NCBI GenBank assembly: GCA_020052935.1
Contig: JAGVOD010000112.1
Span: 1-54,773 of the forward strand
Direction of reading: 5' to 3'
Length of the DNA: 54,773 bases
DNA from: an archaeon
Lineage (GTDB): Archaea > Nanobdellota > Nanobdellia > Woesearchaeales > UBA11576
Below the pieces are notes generated by a model, which was not told the DNA's origin, made no database searches, and was given only the letters and a program-made list of their open reading frames with translations. The position numbers were made by a program, and so were the translations under genes. This document shows positions 28,142 to 31,785 of this stretch, in pieces; positions within the stretch are counted from its first letter, which is position 1; every line of letters starts with the position of its first letter.

Positions 28142-28427
28142 TTCATTCCCTCCAGATTTGATTGCGATTGACCAAAACTACCAAAATAAACGTTAGTGGG
28201 ATAGGTAAACAAGGGTTATTTTTAATATTTTCGGTTTTAGAGGGCGATTTTGGGCTAGAACGGCTGGATAAGGCAAATAAAGGCTTCTGACATGGTAGGC
28301 CTCTTTAATCTAATCTTGGCATCGGAAATGCACCAAAACCTTTAAAAACAACAATCAACACTGGAACAGCATATGGGGAAAGAGGTGAAGAAAGTTCTAG
28401 GTAATCGTAGATATGTGGCTATCTTCG

Positions 28428-28637
28428 GCGCTGGTGAAAATCTCTCCTTCGGAGGTTGCCGCCAGGCTTCGCTTGTCGATACTTTCTCAGATATGCGTCA
28501 TCCCCGTAGGGGGTACTTAGAAACCTTCGGTTTCTGGTACCTCGCTCGCTACGCTCGGAGGCATCCCCCTGCCGCATGCGAAGATTATCGCAAAGGGTCG
28601 CTACGCTTAAAGGCGGCAACACAATTTTCACCAGCGC
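28428..28637. repeat. scaffold element, GC-rich subfamily 2 (copy b), in the leader/promoter region of the channel operon
   Basis: Terminal helix GCGCTGGTGAAAAT (28428-28441) / ATTTTCACCAGCGC (28624-28637). Side hairpin CTCC-TTC-GGAG. Inner helix TTGCCGCC (28456-28463) / GGCGGCAA (28612-28619). The cargo shares GCCAGGCTTCGCT, CCCCGTAGGGGG and CAAAGGGTCGCT with copy a at 36227-36389. Confidence 0.7.
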
Positions 28638-28654
28638 TGCTGCGAGGTATTTAG

Positions 28655-29722
28655 ATGGACGAGTCAATTAGGAGACTGCTGGGGATAAGGAAGAAGACAT
28701 CATGGATGTATGATGCGTGGTACTCGGTACGCAAGATATTCTCGCTCAAATTCCTGATCATCCTTTTGATACTGCTTGTGCTCCTGACATCAATGCTGGC
28801 GTTCGCAAGATATGAATTCATAGTAGAGGCGGATGCCATGGAACGGCTGAACGCCGAGAACATGAGCCCATACACTGCAGCATTCTTCTGGCTGGTAGTC
28901 ACGCTGGCGACAGGATACGAAGAGACGCCACTCACCAATGTGGGGAAGTCCCTCAACCTGTTCATAATCCTGATGAGCGTCGTCGCAGTGGCCGCGTTGA
29001 TATCACAGATAACCAGCATGCTGCTGTCAGCAAACCTCAAGAACATGTTCGGCATGGCAGGCACCAAAGACAAGATAGACTGCATAATCTGCGGATGGAA
29101 CCCGATATCAGAATCAGCTTTCAATGAGATAAAGAAGCCCGGAGTGAAGATAGTCATCGTCGACAAGCAGAACAGGCCAGACCTCGCAAAGGCGAAAGGC
29201 GCGTATTTCATCGCAGGAGACCCGACCAACCCAGACATACTCAGGCGAGCCAACATAACGAACGCAAAGAGCATAATACTCGCGATGGAGGAAGACTCTG
29301 AAGTCCTGCTCGCGATACACGTCATACGCGAGCTCAACCCCTGGGTGAACATAGTCGCCAAGATAAACAACCACGAACACGTCAAGATAGCCGAGTCTGC
29401 TGGCGCAGACCAGGTCGTATCCCCACCATCCATCGGCGGAAGGCTCCTCTCGATGGTCACCGAAGAGCAGTCGGTCGTCGAGTGGGTCATACACGCGACA
29501 TCAAGCGAGAAAGGCACCCAGCTGATAGAGTATGACGTCCTGAAAGACTCGCCATTCGCCAACAAGACAGTGGGAGAGACCAGGAAGGCCCTGGGCAACA
29601 AGGCCAAGATAATCGGCATCGACACAGCAGAAGGTCTCGAGAAGATACCTGGCGACGAGATGAAGATAGAGGCAGGCAACAAGCTCATAATGATGGTAGA
29701 CACCAAGAGGTTCAGGCTATGA
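28655..29722 (+). CDS. 2TM potassium-channel-like protein with C-terminal RCK (TrkA-N/TrkA-C) domain; non-canonical filter TGYEE
   Basis: TM1, then the pore region AAFFWLVVTLATGYEETPLTNVGK, then TM2. This is followed by IICGWNPISESAFNEIKKPGVKIVIVD (Rossmann) and a TrkA-C-like end. GAGGT lies 6 nt upstream of the ATG. Confidence 0.8.
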   Translation: MDESIRRLLGIRKKTSWMYDAWYSVRKIFSLKFLIILLILLVLLTSMLAFARYEFIVEADAMERLNAENMSPYTAAFFWLVVTLATGYEETPLTNVGKSLNLFIILMSVVAVAALISQITSMLLSANLKNMFGMAGTKDKIDCIICGWNPISESAFNEIKKPGVKIVIVDKQNRPDLAKAKGAYFIAGDPTNPDILRRANITNAKSIILAMEEDSEVLLAIHVIRELNPWVNIVAKINNHEHVKIAESAGADQVVSPPSIGGRLLSMVTEEQSVVEWVIHATSSEKGTQLIEYDVLKDSPFANKTVGETRKALGNKAKIIGIDTAEGLEKIPGDEMKIEAGNKLIMMVDTKRFRL

Positions 29723-31785
29723 ACACAAAGCAGCTGCTGATGATCACAGGGATAATGCTGCTTTCAGCGCTGGTGACCGGATACCACGGCAGCGTGAGCT
29801 GGACCAATGCGATACTCATCTCTTCATTACTCGCGTTCCTCATCAAGTTCGGCCTCGCATTGTGGATATACATGCTCAACCCGTCCGCGAACGTCAACAG
29901 GACATTCGCGATAGTATTCACAGGACAGGCAGTGTGGGACCTCGGAAAGTTCGTCATGTGGCTCACCAACGACGCGAGCCACGCGCTGATATGGGCGAAG
30001 ATATCATACTCAGGATACATAATATCCGTATTCTTCCTGCTCAGCTTTGTCTGGGCATACCTCAAGAAGAAGAACTATTTCACGACGGTCCAGGGCAGGA
30101 TAGTCCTCTACACGCCGATGGTGTTCATGCTCGCGGCACTGTGGGCAGGCAACGGCGTCATATCAGGATTGATACCCCCTGATGCCTTGCACTTCGGCTT
30201 CGGCATCGAGCTGTGGGACTACACCTACGGCCCTGTGTACAGCTACTTCTTCATGTGGTTCCAGATAATACCGTTCATCTACGCATTCATACTATTCGTG
30301 TTCAAGTACTTCCACACACAGGCAGAGGACAAGAAGAAGCAGATATTCTACCTGATGCTGGGAAGCGCATTCCCGATAATGCTGGGGATACCGACGGGCG
30401 TATTGCTGCCTGCGATGGGCACATACCTGCCGCCCCACAACAACGTCCTGTCCCTCATCATGTCAGTCTTCATAGCAGTGGGCATAATAAAATACAAGTT
30501 CCTCTCGATACAGCCGATAGGAGAGAGGATCGTGCCTGGAAGGAAGCTTGAGCACGAGCTCGCGAAGAGGTACAGGATGGAGCCTGGCCACAGCTACTTC
30601 ATAAAGCACGAGAAGTCGAGCGAGATAGCATACGGCGTCCTTTTGACGCATCTCTACCAGAGGAAGTACGGCCTCATAATCACCGCGCACAACCCTGCGA
30701 AGATAAGGCACGAGCACGGCATCGAGACGACCCCGGTCATCTGGATGACAGACACAGAGACAGAGCACCTATCCGTCGACCCTATAGACATCGAGCAGAT
30801 ACATGAGACGATAAAGAAATTCATCGAGAAGGTGCCGAACGCATTCGTGCTCATCGACGGCATAGACTACCTGCTCATGCACAACAACTTCGCGAAGATA
30901 CTCCACTTCATAAAACAGGTCAAGGGCATGATGACAAAGAGCGACGACTGCCTCATAGTCCCGAAAGGCTCGCTCGTGCTCGACCCCAAGCAGCAGAAAC
31001 TGCTCGAGGCAGAATTCTTGGTCTTGCCCAAGGCCGCTGCTGAGGCCAAAGAGGCAGAGAAGACGGCAAGAGGGATGAAGAGGAACAACTACATAATACT
31101 TGGCCACAACCCGCTCGCGCAGTCCATAATAAGCGAGTTCGAGAAACGCAGCATCAAGCCAGTTGTCGTCGAGAAACAAGATGTGCTGGTGCACTACCCG
31201 AAAGGCGTGGTTGATATAGTCAAAGGAGACCCGCTCAGCAGCAAAGTCCTGATACACGCAGGCATATGCAAGCCAAACACGGTAGTGCTCGTCACGCTGG
31301 AAGACGACTCTGACATCATACTCTGCATAAACAAGATAAGGCAGATATCAGACTGCGCCAAGATAATCACCAACATAAACAACCAGAACTTCATATCAAT
31401 AGCCCTGAAGGCAGGCGCAGACAACGTAATACCTTCCTCGTCGATAGGAGGAAGATTGATATCACTTGCCCTGAGCTCGCCAGACATAGTACGGTGGGTG
31501 ATGGACGCCACCACGCTCGCCGCGACCGATCTCGAGCTGTGCGAGTTCGTCGTCGACACCAAGTCAAGGATTGTAGGGAAGACAGTCGAGCAGGTCGACA
31601 GGCACATGGGCAAGTCCGCGAACATAATAGCAGTAAAGACAGTCGAAGGGCTGAGGCAGATACCTGACGACGACTACGTGCTCAAAGAAGGCGACAGGCT
31701 CGTGCTCATAGTCAACATGGAAGCGTTGCCGAAAGGGAAAGAGATGGCAGAGAGAGTCGGGAAGCTGGTGAAGCAAAAGTATTGA
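29719..31785 (+). CDS. 7TM (HisKA_7TM-like) - DUF835 - RCK (TrkA-N/TrkA-C) fusion protein
   Basis: Seven N-terminal TM helices. DUF835 pattern GHSYFIKHEKS..YGLIITAHNPAKIRHEHGIETTPVIWMTD..AFVLIDGIDYLLMHNNFAKILHFIKQV. The C-terminal NYIILGHNPLAQSIISEF..GADNVIPSSSIGGRL is paralogous to the RCK of the upstream channel. The start overlaps the upstream stop by 4 nt (ATGA). Confidence 0.75.
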   Translation: MNTKQLLMITGIMLLSALVTGYHGSVSWTNAILISSLLAFLIKFGLALWIYMLNPSANVNRTFAIVFTGQAVWDLGKFVMWLTNDASHALIWAKISYSGYIISVFFLLSFVWAYLKKKNYFTTVQGRIVLYTPMVFMLAALWAGNGVISGLIPPDALHFGFGIELWDYTYGPVYSYFFMWFQIIPFIYAFILFVFKYFHTQAEDKKKQIFYLMLGSAFPIMLGIPTGVLLPAMGTYLPPHNNVLSLIMSVFIAVGIIKYKFLSIQPIGERIVPGRKLEHELAKRYRMEPGHSYFIKHEKSSEIAYGVLLTHLYQRKYGLIITAHNPAKIRHEHGIETTPVIWMTDTETEHLSVDPIDIEQIHETIKKFIEKVPNAFVLIDGIDYLLMHNNFAKILHFIKQVKGMMTKSDDCLIVPKGSLVLDPKQQKLLEAEFLVLPKAAAEAKEAEKTARGMKRNNYIILGHNPLAQSIISEFEKRSIKPVVVEKQDVLVHYPKGVVDIVKGDPLSSKVLIHAGICKPNTVVLVTLEDDSDIILCINKIRQISDCAKIITNINNQNFISIALKAGADNVIPSSSIGGRLISLALSSPDIVRWVMDATTLAATDLELCEFVVDTKSRIVGKTVEQVDRHMGKSANIIAVKTVEGLRQIPDDDYVLKEGDRLVLIVNMEALPKGKEMAERVGKLVKQKY

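What the first reader, a model, noticed from the sequence alone, without database searches (positions are those of the whole stretch)
28655..31785. K-channel with degenerate selectivity filter co-translated with a 7TM-DUF835-RCK protein
Gene 1 is an MthK-like 2TM channel with a tethered RCK domain. Its filter reads TLATGYEETP instead of T(V/I)GYGD, so one residue is missing and the second Gly is replaced by Glu. This predicts altered or lost K+ selectivity.

Gene 2 overlaps gene 1 by ATGA. It fuses a 7TM sensor-type domain, a DUF835 domain (archaeal, function unknown) and a second RCK module paralogous to that of the channel.

In MthK-type channels the gating ring needs extra soluble RCK subunits. 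Here the extra RCK may instead be supplied by a membrane sensor protein, which would give a two-component sensor-gated channel. I do not know of a described 7TM-DUF835-RCK partner system.
Basis: partly seen in the sequence, partly recalled or inferred. Interest (0 to 1): 0.65.

Follow-up and report, generated by a model that had tools for sequence, protein, structure and literature searches.

The report
Archaeal channel paired with membrane-sensor RCK partner
In tiny uncultured Woesearchaeota archaea, an MthK-like ion channel gene is always followed by a gene for a seven-helix membrane sensor carrying a sister copy of the channel's regulatory domain. This suggests a two-protein sensor-gated channel, and this genome's lineage has in addition rebuilt the pore that normally selects potassium.

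Summary
Gene 1 (28655-29722) is an MthK-like 2TM channel with one RCK domain. Gene 2 (29719-31785) is HisKA_7TM + DUF835 (inactivated KaiC) + RCK, and the two genes overlap by ATGA.

- **Pair conservation.** The pair is present in every related locus examined with room for the neighbour (about 40 loci, roughly 30 non-redundant, 38-77% identity). The genes are almost always overlapping or 1-34 nt apart, while the flanking genes change.
- **RCK paralogy.** The two RCK domains are sister paralogs (35% identity). They form two clades that diversified in parallel.
- **Fusion is rare.** The 7TM-DUF835-RCK fusion is confined to this family. The wider family is 7TM-DUF835 without RCK.
- **Filter is derived.** Most orthologs, in the same synteny, carry canonical TVGYGD. 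One well-supported clade (11 clusters, including the window) has a loop two residues shorter, x-[G/E/W]-Y-x-E-x-P.
- **Pore remodelling.** It came in one burst confined to the pore module (stem 0.54 vs 0.00 substitutions/site in the RCK part). Constraint was normal afterwards.

The best reading is a hetero-octameric gating ring, four channel RCKs plus four sensor RCKs, with changed ion selectivity in this clade. The ring and the selectivity change are inferred, not shown. I found no published description.

The parts
28334..28414 (+). Conserved promoter and leader-start block: AAAACCTTTAAAAA, about 22 nt, then ATGGGRAAAGAGGTGGA
   Evidence: blastn and inspection find it upstream of the channel gene in L007, L008, L009, L011, L012, L015 and L016. 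Only the first ~6 codons of the ORF that starts there are conserved.
28644..28648 (+). GAGGT, a Shine-Dalgarno-like motif 6 nt before the gene 1 ATG
   Evidence: A similar motif precedes the channel start in 11 of 20 loci.
28655..29722 (+). Gene 1: MthK-like 2TM pore plus one RCK domain, 355 aa
   Evidence: MthK 5.4e-29; best fold match is full-length MthK, E 6e-23.
28745..28822 (+). TM1 (residues 31-56)
   Evidence: Helix in AF2 model m3791ab80a1ef.
28868..28912 (+). Pore helix (residues 72-86)
   Evidence: Aligns to the MthK pore helix.
28901..28930 (+). Remodelled selectivity-filter loop TLATGYEETP (residues 83-92), two residues shorter than TVGYGD-type loops
   Evidence: A clade-wide feature.
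28937..29050 (+). TM2 and linker helix (residues 95-132). The gating-hinge Gly of canonical orthologs and MthK G83 is Ser108 here
29045..29047 (+). Met131 codon, one residue before the position aligned to the MthK internal start M107
   Evidence: No SD-like motif upstream. Deep family members have Phe or Leu (TTC/TTA) at this position.
29084..29701 (+). Channel RCK domain (TrkA_N 144-257, crossover helices, TrkA_C 290-349)
   Evidence: MthK Ca2+ ligands D184/E210/E212 align to A/K/N.
29707..29711 (+). GAGGT inside the 3' end of gene 1, 7 nt before the gene 2 ATG
   Evidence: An SD-like AGAGGTT / GGAGG motif sits at the same place in many loci.
29719..29722 (+). ATGA start/stop overlap (translational coupling)
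   Evidence: ATGA overlap in 12 of 27 intact junctions listed (including a few near-duplicate loci). The others range from -17 to +34 nt.
29719..31785 (+). Gene 2: 7TM-DUF835-RCK membrane protein, 688 aa
29794..30516 (+). Seven-helix sensor domain (HisKA_7TM). It is preceded by an N-terminal hydrophobic helix (res 3-20)
   Evidence: Pfam 1.8e-20. Seven helices between 26 and 259, plus a beta hairpin at 148-170, in model m22ad5418c170. Many invariant polar and aromatic residues.
30649..31017 (+). DUF835, an inactivated KaiC/RecA-like domain. No Walker A GK[ST]. The Walker-B-like LIDG (D380) is invariant
   Evidence: Pfam 1.5e-25. Alternating beta/alpha pattern. iKaiC assignment from PMC5847659. 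Weak FlaH hit.
31030..31074 (+). Helical linker from DUF835 to RCK (residues 438-452)
31090..31728 (+). Partner RCK domain (TrkA_N 458-571, TrkA_C 609-670), sister paralog of the channel RCK

Best explanation
This is a conserved, translationally coupled two-gene module of Woesearchaeota (DPANN archaea).

**The two proteins**
- Gene 1 makes the pore: a tetrameric 2TM MthK-type channel with one tethered RCK domain per subunit.
- Gene 2 makes a membrane sensor: seven helices, then an inactivated KaiC-like domain, then an RCK domain. That RCK arose by duplication of the channel's RCK.

**Proposed mechanism (inferred)**
- Four sensor RCKs take the places that soluble RCK subunits occupy in MthK. 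Together with the four channel RCKs they form a 4+4 hetero-octameric gating ring.
- A signal sensed by the 7TM domain would pass through the iKaiC domain to the ring, and from the ring to the pore gate.
- The layout would resemble a 'split BK' channel, or Kir6/SUR.

**This window's lineage**
- The pore module of the orthologous channel was rebuilt in a single evolutionary burst. The filter loop is two residues shorter, GYG became GY[E/V/A], and a new Asn/Asp appears at the top of TM2.
- After that burst the pore was conserved again.
- The channel here therefore most likely conducts with changed selectivity (non-selective cations or divalents) rather than being K+-selective or dead.

**Shown:** the architecture, the conservation of the pair, the coupling, the paralogy, and the single origin and burst of pore change.

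**Inferred:** the hetero-ring, the direction of signalling and the ion selectivity.
For: **Pair conservation**
- The channel gene lies directly upstream of the 7TM-DUF835-RCK gene in L001-L023, L086-L091, L092 and 13 of 13 metagenome loci with upstream sequence.
- This holds at 38-77% identity while the flanking genes differ.
- No unpaired member of either clade was found.

**Coupling**
- Junctions of intact gene pairs run from -17 to +34 nt and 12 are ATGA overlaps. An SD-like GAGGT sits in the 3' end of gene 1.

**Paralogy**
- The two RCKs are 35% identical, E 1e-41, closer than either is to MthK.
- In the ML tree the gene 1 RCKs and gene 2 RCKs are each one clade (100/100).
- Together with the unpaired Woesearchaeota channel L024, whose place among the three is unresolved, they form a clade (95/87) that excludes the other RCKs sampled.
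- Their inner topologies are parallel.

**Need for eight RCKs**
- MthK needs eight RCKs, four of them soluble and made from internal Met107 (PMC2151542).
- Here the Met next to that position has no SD-like motif upstream. It is Phe or Leu (TTC/TTA) in deep paired members.

**Precedent**
- An octameric ring built from two different subunits has been solved: TM1088A:TM1088B, PDB 3l4b.

**Rarity of the fusion**
- Among 1.84 billion representatives, the RCK fusion occurs only in this family (about 10 clusters).
- 7TM-DUF835 alone is common (59 + 22 of the top 150).
- DUF835 is an output domain elsewhere.

**Filter**
- The degenerate-filter proteins form one clade (100/99) nested among TVGYGD orthologs, in the same synteny.
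- Stem branch: 0.54 substitutions/site for the pore partition against 0.000 for RCK. Node-to-tip length afterwards equals that of the sister clade, 0.89 vs 0.86.
- The RCK-channel CASTOR, which has a non-GYG filter, is a Ca2+ channel (PMC6697748).
Against: - No physical or modelled evidence exists for a gene 1-gene 2 RCK contact.
- Co-diversification and adjacency would also be expected of two proteins that merely work in the same pathway.
- In an MthK-type ring the non-tethered RCKs form the membrane-distal layer. The sensor's RCK would have to reach there through DUF835 and a ~15-residue helix. This is plausible but untested.
- Met131 is conserved in the nearer clade, so an internal start cannot be excluded.
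- Within the altered clade the first filter Gly is itself variable (G/E/W) and the hinge Gly is lost in some members. That could instead mean a non-conducting pore.
Confidence: 0.5

Rival explanations
1. Gene 2 is a self-contained receptor. Its RCK forms homo-dimers or its own ring and regulates the 7TM/iKaiC part, or is regulated by it. It shares an operon with the channel only because both serve the same physiology, for example responding to the same cytoplasmic ligand. There is no mixed ring.
For: - RCK/TrkA domains are appended to many unrelated membrane proteins. NCBIfam hits to KefB/C, YbaL and TrkA illustrate this.
- 7TM-DUF835 proteins work without any RCK or channel in most archaea.
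- The charge-swapped pair R310/D323 (gene 1) versus D627/R640 (gene 2) can be read as an intrachain swap that says nothing about hetero-contacts.
Against: - The RCK fusion exists only where the channel gene is adjacent.
- The appended RCK is the sister paralog of that very channel's RCK.
- Start/stop overlap argues for equimolar production.
- The channel lacks a conserved way to make its own second RCK.
Confidence: 0.25
2. The channel completes its ring as MthK does, with soluble RCK made from an internal start at Met131/Met134. Gene 2 is then an accessory subunit that contacts the complex in some other way, or not at all.
For: Met131 lies one residue from the MthK M107-equivalent position. 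It is conserved in the nearer clade as S/N-M-F-G.
Against: - No SD-like motif lies upstream of this codon in 18 of 20 loci. Such motifs are frequent before the real starts.
- Deep members of the paired family have Phe or Leu encoded by TTC/TTA, which cannot initiate.
Confidence: 0.12
3. In the window's clade the pore no longer conducts. The 2TM module survives only as a tetramerisation and membrane anchor for an RCK ring, which now serves signalling through gene 2.
For: - Loss of the second filter Gly. The first Gly is variable (G/E/W), and a Trp at that position occurs in P0072.
- The hinge Gly is replaced by Ser or Asn in some members.
- Conservation of the pore module is lower than in the sister clade.
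Against: - After the burst the pore module evolves no faster than in canonical relatives (0.89 vs 0.86).
- The pore helix is 66% conserved. New clade-specific residues are fixed: FFW, Y-x-E-x-P, and L-[D/N]-L in TM2. This fits a new function better than decay.
Confidence: 0.2
4. The odd filter is a sequencing or assembly artefact, or gene 1 is a pseudogene.
For: Two related loci carry single in-frame stop codons in the channel gene: L001 (absent from its near-duplicate L002) and L005.
Against: - The window ORF is intact.
- The same two-gap filter is found in 11 clusters from independent samples, with 52-84% identity and intact ORFs and partners.
Confidence: 0.01

Closest known systems
MthK (Methanothermobacter Ca2+-gated K+ channel; PDB 1lnq, 6oly)
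   Same: - 2TM pore followed by a single RCK (TrkA_N + TrkA_C).
- Best sequence hit (5.4e-29) and best fold hit (6e-23).
- CGW motif in place of GxGxxG.
- An eight-RCK ring is expected.
   Different: - The filter is two residues shorter and lacks the second Gly.
- Ca2+ ligands D184/E210/E212 are A/K/N.
- No conserved internal start.
- A dedicated adjacent gene encodes a membrane-anchored paralogous RCK.
BK/Slo1 and GsuK (channels with two different RCKs per subunit)
   Same: The gating ring would be made of two diverged RCK paralogs in 4+4 arrangement. A peripheral transmembrane sensor would sit beside a central pore. GsuK is the top fold hit of gene 2.
   Different: Here the second RCK and the sensor helices are on a separate polypeptide. 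The sensor is a HisKA_7TM domain, not a voltage sensor. An iKaiC domain is interposed. The tandem-RCK GsuK-like proteins are a separate duplication.
TM1088A:TM1088B two-subunit octameric RCK ring (PDB 3l4b) and KtrA/TrkA rings
   Same: Precedent for a ring built from two gene products encoded side by side.
   Different: Those subunits are soluble and serve TrkH/KtrB-type transporters. Neither carries a membrane sensor.
7TM-DUF835 archaeal receptors and REC-DUF835 response regulators (Galperin et al. 2018, PMC5847659)
   Same: The same HisKA_7TM + DUF835 (iKaiC) core. This is the commonest architecture among relatives of gene 2.
   Different: The C-terminal RCK is added only in the Woesearchaeota family and always sits next to an RCK channel.
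CASTOR/POLLUX/DMI1, NaK and CNG channels (K-channel folds with non-GYG filters)
   Same: The tetrameric P-loop pore has lost the canonical filter. CASTOR also has an RCK ring and is Ca2+-selective (PMC6697748). Like CNG, the loop is two residues shorter and carries Glu followed by Thr-Pro (from memory of the CNG TIGETPPP motif).
   Different: The motif x-G-Y-[E/V/A]-E-x-P matches none of their filters (NaK TVGDG, CNG TIGET, CASTOR ADAGNHA; all three from memory). The change arose independently inside a TVGYGD family.
KATP (Kir6 + SUR)
   Same: Functional analogy only: four 2TM pore subunits plus four large membrane regulatory subunits that carry P-loop-fold domains.
   Different: No homology of the partner. 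In KATP the coupling is not through RCK domains.

Membership tests
MthK-type RCK-gated K+ channels | 2TM P-loop pore domain | tested here: met
   Ion_trans_2 25.0 bits against a 22.5 cut-off. TM1, pore helix and TM2 are present in the AF2 model. Full-length MthK is the best fold match.
MthK-type RCK-gated K+ channels | Canonical T-V/I-G-Y-G-D selectivity filter | tested here: not met
   The window has T-L-A-T-G-Y-E-E-T-P with two gaps against MthK and against orthologs. Orthologs outside the clade do meet this feature.
MthK-type RCK-gated K+ channels | C-terminal RCK domain (TrkA_N + TrkA_C) | tested here: met
   TrkA_N 1.2e-25. TrkA_C 8e-6, but at 26.1 bits it is just under the 27-bit cut-off. 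Aligned to the MthK RCK over residues 142-307.
MthK-type RCK-gated K+ channels | Ca2+ site D184/E210/E212 | tested here: not met
   These residues align to Ala, Lys and Asn in gene 1. In gene 2 the last two positions, taken from the gene 1/gene 2 alignments, are Thr and Asn. D184 was not mapped in gene 2.
MthK-type RCK-gated K+ channels | Soluble RCK made from an internal Met (M107) | tested here: inconclusive
   Met131 is adjacent to the equivalent position. It has no SD-like motif upstream and is not conserved in deep members.
7TM-DUF835 (iKaiC) archaeal receptors | HisKA_7TM domain followed by DUF835 | tested here: met
   PF16927 1.8e-20 and PF05763 1.5e-25, both above cut-off. 81 of the top 150 representatives share this core.
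7TM-DUF835 (iKaiC) archaeal receptors | Degenerate P-loop (no Walker A Lys/Ser-Thr) | tested here: met
   The segment after strand 292-295 reads HEKSSEIAYG, with no GK[ST]. The Walker-B-like D380 is invariant. These are sequence readings only. There is no biochemical test.
Hetero-octameric RCK gating rings (BK, GsuK, TM1088A/B) | Two distinct RCK types contacting each other in one ring | not testable with these tools
   Only monomer prediction was offered. The indirect support is sister paralogy, coupling and strict co-occurrence.
NaK / CNG-type non-selective cation channels | Filter TVGDG (NaK) or T-I-G-E-T-P (CNG) | tested here: not met
   The motif in the clade is [T/A/V]-[G/E/W]-Y-[E/V/A]-E-x-P. 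It shares only the shorter loop and the Glu with CNG. The family motifs are from memory.

The most novel reading that the evidence does not exclude
A receptor-operated ion channel built as a 4+4 complex of two membrane proteins. A 7TM-iKaiC sensor would gate an MthK-type pore by contributing half of its RCK ring. In the window's clade the pore would have switched from K+ to another cation selectivity. It would be a split, prokaryotic counterpart of BK or KATP architecture, found in genome-reduced DPANN archaea.
Probability: 0.3. Interest if true: 0.8.

Novelty: new variant of a known kind. Interest (0 to 1): 0.6.

Why it matters
RCK-gated channels are the structural model for BK channels and for prokaryotic K+ homeostasis. 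In every known case the second set of RCK domains is soluble or lies in the same chain.

A membrane receptor that supplies them would be a new way to couple an extracellular or membrane signal to a pore. It would also give the widespread but uncharacterised 7TM-DUF835 receptors their first concrete output.

The family also offers a natural experiment on selectivity filters. Close orthologs in the same gene context carry either TVGYGD or a rebuilt, shorter filter. Swapping these short segments could show what the new filter conducts.

For DPANN biology, it marks a conserved signalling module in very small genomes.

Tried and rejected
- **Rfam scan of the whole window:** no hits. The structured-looking leader at 28428-28637 is not a known RNA family, and blastn does not find it in orthologous loci.
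- **Fold search with the gene 2 model:** dominated by the RCK domain (GsuK, MthK). It gave no independent fold assignment for DUF835 or the 7TM part.
- **Charge-swapped columns between the two RCK families**: considered as evidence for a hetero-interface. Set aside, because the best pair (R310/D323 vs D627/R640) can equally be an intrachain salt bridge that swapped.
- **Mirror-tree or coevolution statistics:** not attempted. There are about 30 pairs, and linked genes co-diversify anyway.
- **Paralog hypothesis** (degenerate-filter copy kept beside a canonical copy): not supported for this locus. Canonical and altered genes occupy the same synteny, histone | channel | partner | ABC2 | ABC ATPase. 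A canonical copy elsewhere in the genome could not be checked.
- **Literature:** searches for DUF835/PF05763/iKaiC/HisKA_7TM and for Woesearchaeota + potassium channel found no description of this pair.
Full report
**1. What is in the sequence**

Two same-strand ORFs lie at 28655..29722 (355 aa) and 29719..31785 (688 aa). They share the four bases ATGA.

Pfam scores:

| Gene | Domain | Score | Residues |
|---|---|---|---|
| 1 | Ion_trans_2 | 25.0 bits (cut-off 22.5) | 44-123 |
| 1 | TrkA_N | 1.2e-25 | 144-257 |
| 1 | TrkA_C | 8e-6 | 290-349 |
| 2 | HisKA_7TM | 1.8e-20 | 37-266 |
| 2 | DUF835 | 1.5e-25 | 311-433 |
| 2 | TrkA_N | 2.2e-13 | 458-571 |
| 2 | TrkA_C | 3.4e-10 | 609-670 |

- The closest solved structure to gene 1 is MthK, by sequence (5.4e-29) and by fold (6e-23 over ~320 columns).
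- The AF2 model of gene 1 shows TM1 (31-56), the pore helix (72-86), a short loop and TM2 (95-132), followed by a Rossmann-type RCK.
- The model of gene 2 (mean pLDDT 77) has an N-terminal hydrophobic helix and seven membrane helices (26-259) with a beta hairpin. Then come an alternating beta/alpha domain (292-436), a helical linker (438-452) and an RCK domain.
- Homolog names place the organism among Woesearchaeota / Nanoarchaeota (DPANN). An earlier follow-up on the same genome reached the same view.

**2. The filter**

TLATGYEETP is encoded at 28901-28930. Both HMMER against MthK and MAFFT against 47 relatives place two single-residue gaps:

- MthK: VTIATvGYGDySP
- Window: VTLAT-GYEE-TP

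The loop between the pore-helix Trp and the conserved Pro is therefore two residues shorter. The second Gly is Glu and the Asp is Glu.

MthK Ca2+ ligands D184, E210 and E212 align to Ala, Lys and Asn. The classical Ca2+ site is absent.

**3. The filter is a derived trait of one clade, not of the system**

- Of the relatives with 39-84% identity, most carry canonical T-[TA]-[VIT]-G-Y-G-[DE].
- Eleven 90%-identity clusters, including the window, carry [T/A/V]-[G/E/W]-Y-[E/V/A]-E-x-P with the same two gaps. Two more such loci turned up in the metagenome scan.
- In an ML tree these eleven form one clade (100/99 support, 100% of bootstrap trees) nested among canonical channels.
- Canonical loci (L006-L014) and altered loci (window, L086-L088) share the same neighbourhood: histone | channel | partner | ABC-2 permease | ABC ATPase. 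They are orthologs at one locus, not an old paralog pair.
- With the topology fixed, the stem of the altered clade is 0.54 substitutions/site for the pore partition (residues 25-125). For the RCK partition (141-355) it is 0.000.
- After the stem, node-to-tip lengths equal those of the canonical sister group: pore 0.89 vs 0.86, RCK 0.35 vs 0.33.
- Per-region identities tell the same story. Between-clade identity collapses in TM1, turret, pore helix, filter and TM2, but not in the RCK.

So the whole pore module was rebuilt once and then held under ordinary constraint. New clade-specific residues were fixed: FFW in the pore helix, Y-x-E-x-P, and L-[D/N]-L at the top of TM2. That pattern fits a change of function better than decay.

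What the new pore conducts is not known. CASTOR, another RCK-ring channel with a non-GYG filter, turned out to be Ca2+-selective (PMC6697748). That shows such shifts happen.

**4. The pair is conserved without exception**

The 7TM-DUF835-RCK gene lies directly downstream of the channel gene in:

- all of L001-L023
- L086-L091
- L092
- 13 of 13 metagenome loci that have upstream sequence

Some loci are duplicates of one organism, so about 30 are non-redundant. Identity to the window falls to 38-40% and the flanking genes change completely. Ten further pairs sit on contigs of identical length in the two homolog tables.

Where both genes are intact, junctions run from -17 to +34 nt. Twelve are ATGA overlaps, and most of the rest are 1-2 nt apart. 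The last codons of the channel (…K-R-F…) usually spell an SD-like AGAGGTT 7-10 nt before the partner's ATG. This is translational coupling and implies roughly equimolar synthesis.

The one related channel without a partner (L024) lies outside the paired clade on a long branch.

**5. The partner's RCK is the channel RCK's sister**

- The two RCKs in the window are 35% identical over 209 residues (E 1e-41). Each is closer to the other than to MthK.
- In an ML tree of RCK domains, the gene 1 RCKs and the gene 2 RCKs are each monophyletic (100/100).
- Together with the unpaired Woesearchaeota channel L024, whose place among the three is unresolved, they form a clade (95/87). It excludes the haloarchaeal, bacterial and GsuK-like tandem RCKs.
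- Their inner branching is parallel: L017+L018, L019+L022, L086+L088, L006+L008.
- The gene 2 RCK stem is long (0.9). That is expected if a duplicate specialised.

**6. How rare the fusion is**

An exhaustive HMMER search of 1.84 billion representatives gave 3451 hits. Full 7TM-DUF835-RCK proteins come only from this family, about ten 50%-identity clusters including fragments. The rest of the top 150 are 7TM-DUF835 (59), 7TM-DUF835-DUF835 (22+), DUF835 alone, or RCK proteins.

DUF835 has been classed as an inactivated KaiC (iKaiC) domain and acts as an output domain of archaeal response regulators (PMC5847659). In gene 2 the Walker A is missing (HEKSSEIAYG), while a Walker-B-like LIDG with an invariant Asp is kept.

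I found no paper that describes the RCK fusion or its pairing with a channel.

**7. Mechanism**

MthK's gate is driven by a ring of eight RCKs. Four are tethered and four are soluble copies made from internal Met107 (PMC2151542).

In this family the Met nearest that position (Met131) has no SD-like motif upstream. In deep paired members it is Phe or Leu, encoded by TTC/TTA. The family therefore has no conserved way to make soluble RCK.

A coupled gene that supplies a sister RCK in 1:1 amounts is the simplest source of the missing four. A two-subunit octameric RCK ring has been solved (TM1088A:TM1088B, 3l4b). BK and GsuK build their rings from two diverged RCKs.

I therefore favour a 4+4 ring in which the sensor's RCKs form the second layer. 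The DUF835 domain and the 438-452 helix would span the height of the first layer.

- **Shown:** architecture, coupling, paralogy, strict co-occurrence.
- **Inferred:** physical contact, geometry, direction of signalling, the stimulus.

Rivals are given with odds in their own sections of this report: an independent receptor with its own RCK dimers, an MthK-like internal start, a non-conducting pore, and an artefact.

**8. Limits**

- Only monomer models could be made.
- The genome could not be searched for other K+ systems.
- No sequencing runs could be consulted.
- Taxon labels such as 'uncultured Methanosarcinales archaeon' on several MAG contigs are at odds with their Woesearchaeota-like synteny and sequence. 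I treat them as unreliable.

**9. Verdict**

The pair is conserved and no GYG appears on re-alignment. The central claim of a mixed ring remains inference.

The new points are these:
- The module is a clade-wide, invariantly paired invention of Woesearchaeota.
- The partner's RCK arose from the channel's own.
- The odd filter marks a single, pore-wide remodelling event in one sublineage.

I rate it a new variant of a known kind, of solid interest to channel and archaeal-signalling specialists.

Noticed in passing
window 28334-28414; also L007, L008, L009, L011, L012, L015, L016 upstream of the channel gene: A conserved block: AAAACCTTTAAAAA (TATA-like), about 22 nt, then ATGGGRAAAGAGGTGGA. Only the first ~6 codons (MGKEVE/K) of the ORF that starts there are conserved. 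ORF length (20-124 aa) and the distance to the channel ATG (30-390 nt) vary. It may be a leaderless upstream ORF or a conserved 5' leader start for the operon.
   Followed up: partly
blastn does not find it in any orthologous locus, so it looks like a lineage-specific insertion into the operon leader. Rfam gives no match.
   Followed up: partly
L001 4711-4713 vs L002; L005 4780-4782: Single in-frame stop codons in the channel gene. In L001, TCA becomes TAA inside the invariant SPPSIGGRLL motif, and this is the only difference from its near-duplicate locus L002. In L005, a TAG sits just before the near-invariant Trp of V-x-W. These are sequencing errors, rare alleles or incipient pseudogenes.
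   Followed up: partly
gene 1 residues 276, 310, 323 vs gene 2 residues 592, 627, 640: Three charge-swapped alignment columns between the two RCK families. R310/D323 in the channel corresponds to D627/R640 in the partner. This is either a swapped intrachain salt bridge or complementary hetero-interface charges.
   Followed up: no
L024 4041-5867: The only related Woesearchaeota channel without the partner gene has a canonical TVGYGD filter. It lies directly after a RadB/KaiC-like ATPase gene with an intact GPSGTGKTT Walker A.
   Followed up: no
L008, L009, L012, L013, L017, L019, L020, L023 (record titles): Contigs titled 'uncultured Methanosarcinales archaeon' carry the same histone-channel-partner-ABC synteny, with 80-87% identical histone and ABC proteins, as contigs titled Woesearchaeota. 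The titles look like misassigned taxonomy.
   Followed up: no
L099 (contig Ga0209142_1000002, 922230 bases): A canonical-filter pair lies on a 922-kb contig, close to a whole DPANN genome. It would be a good place to census all K+ transport genes alongside the pair.
   Followed up: no
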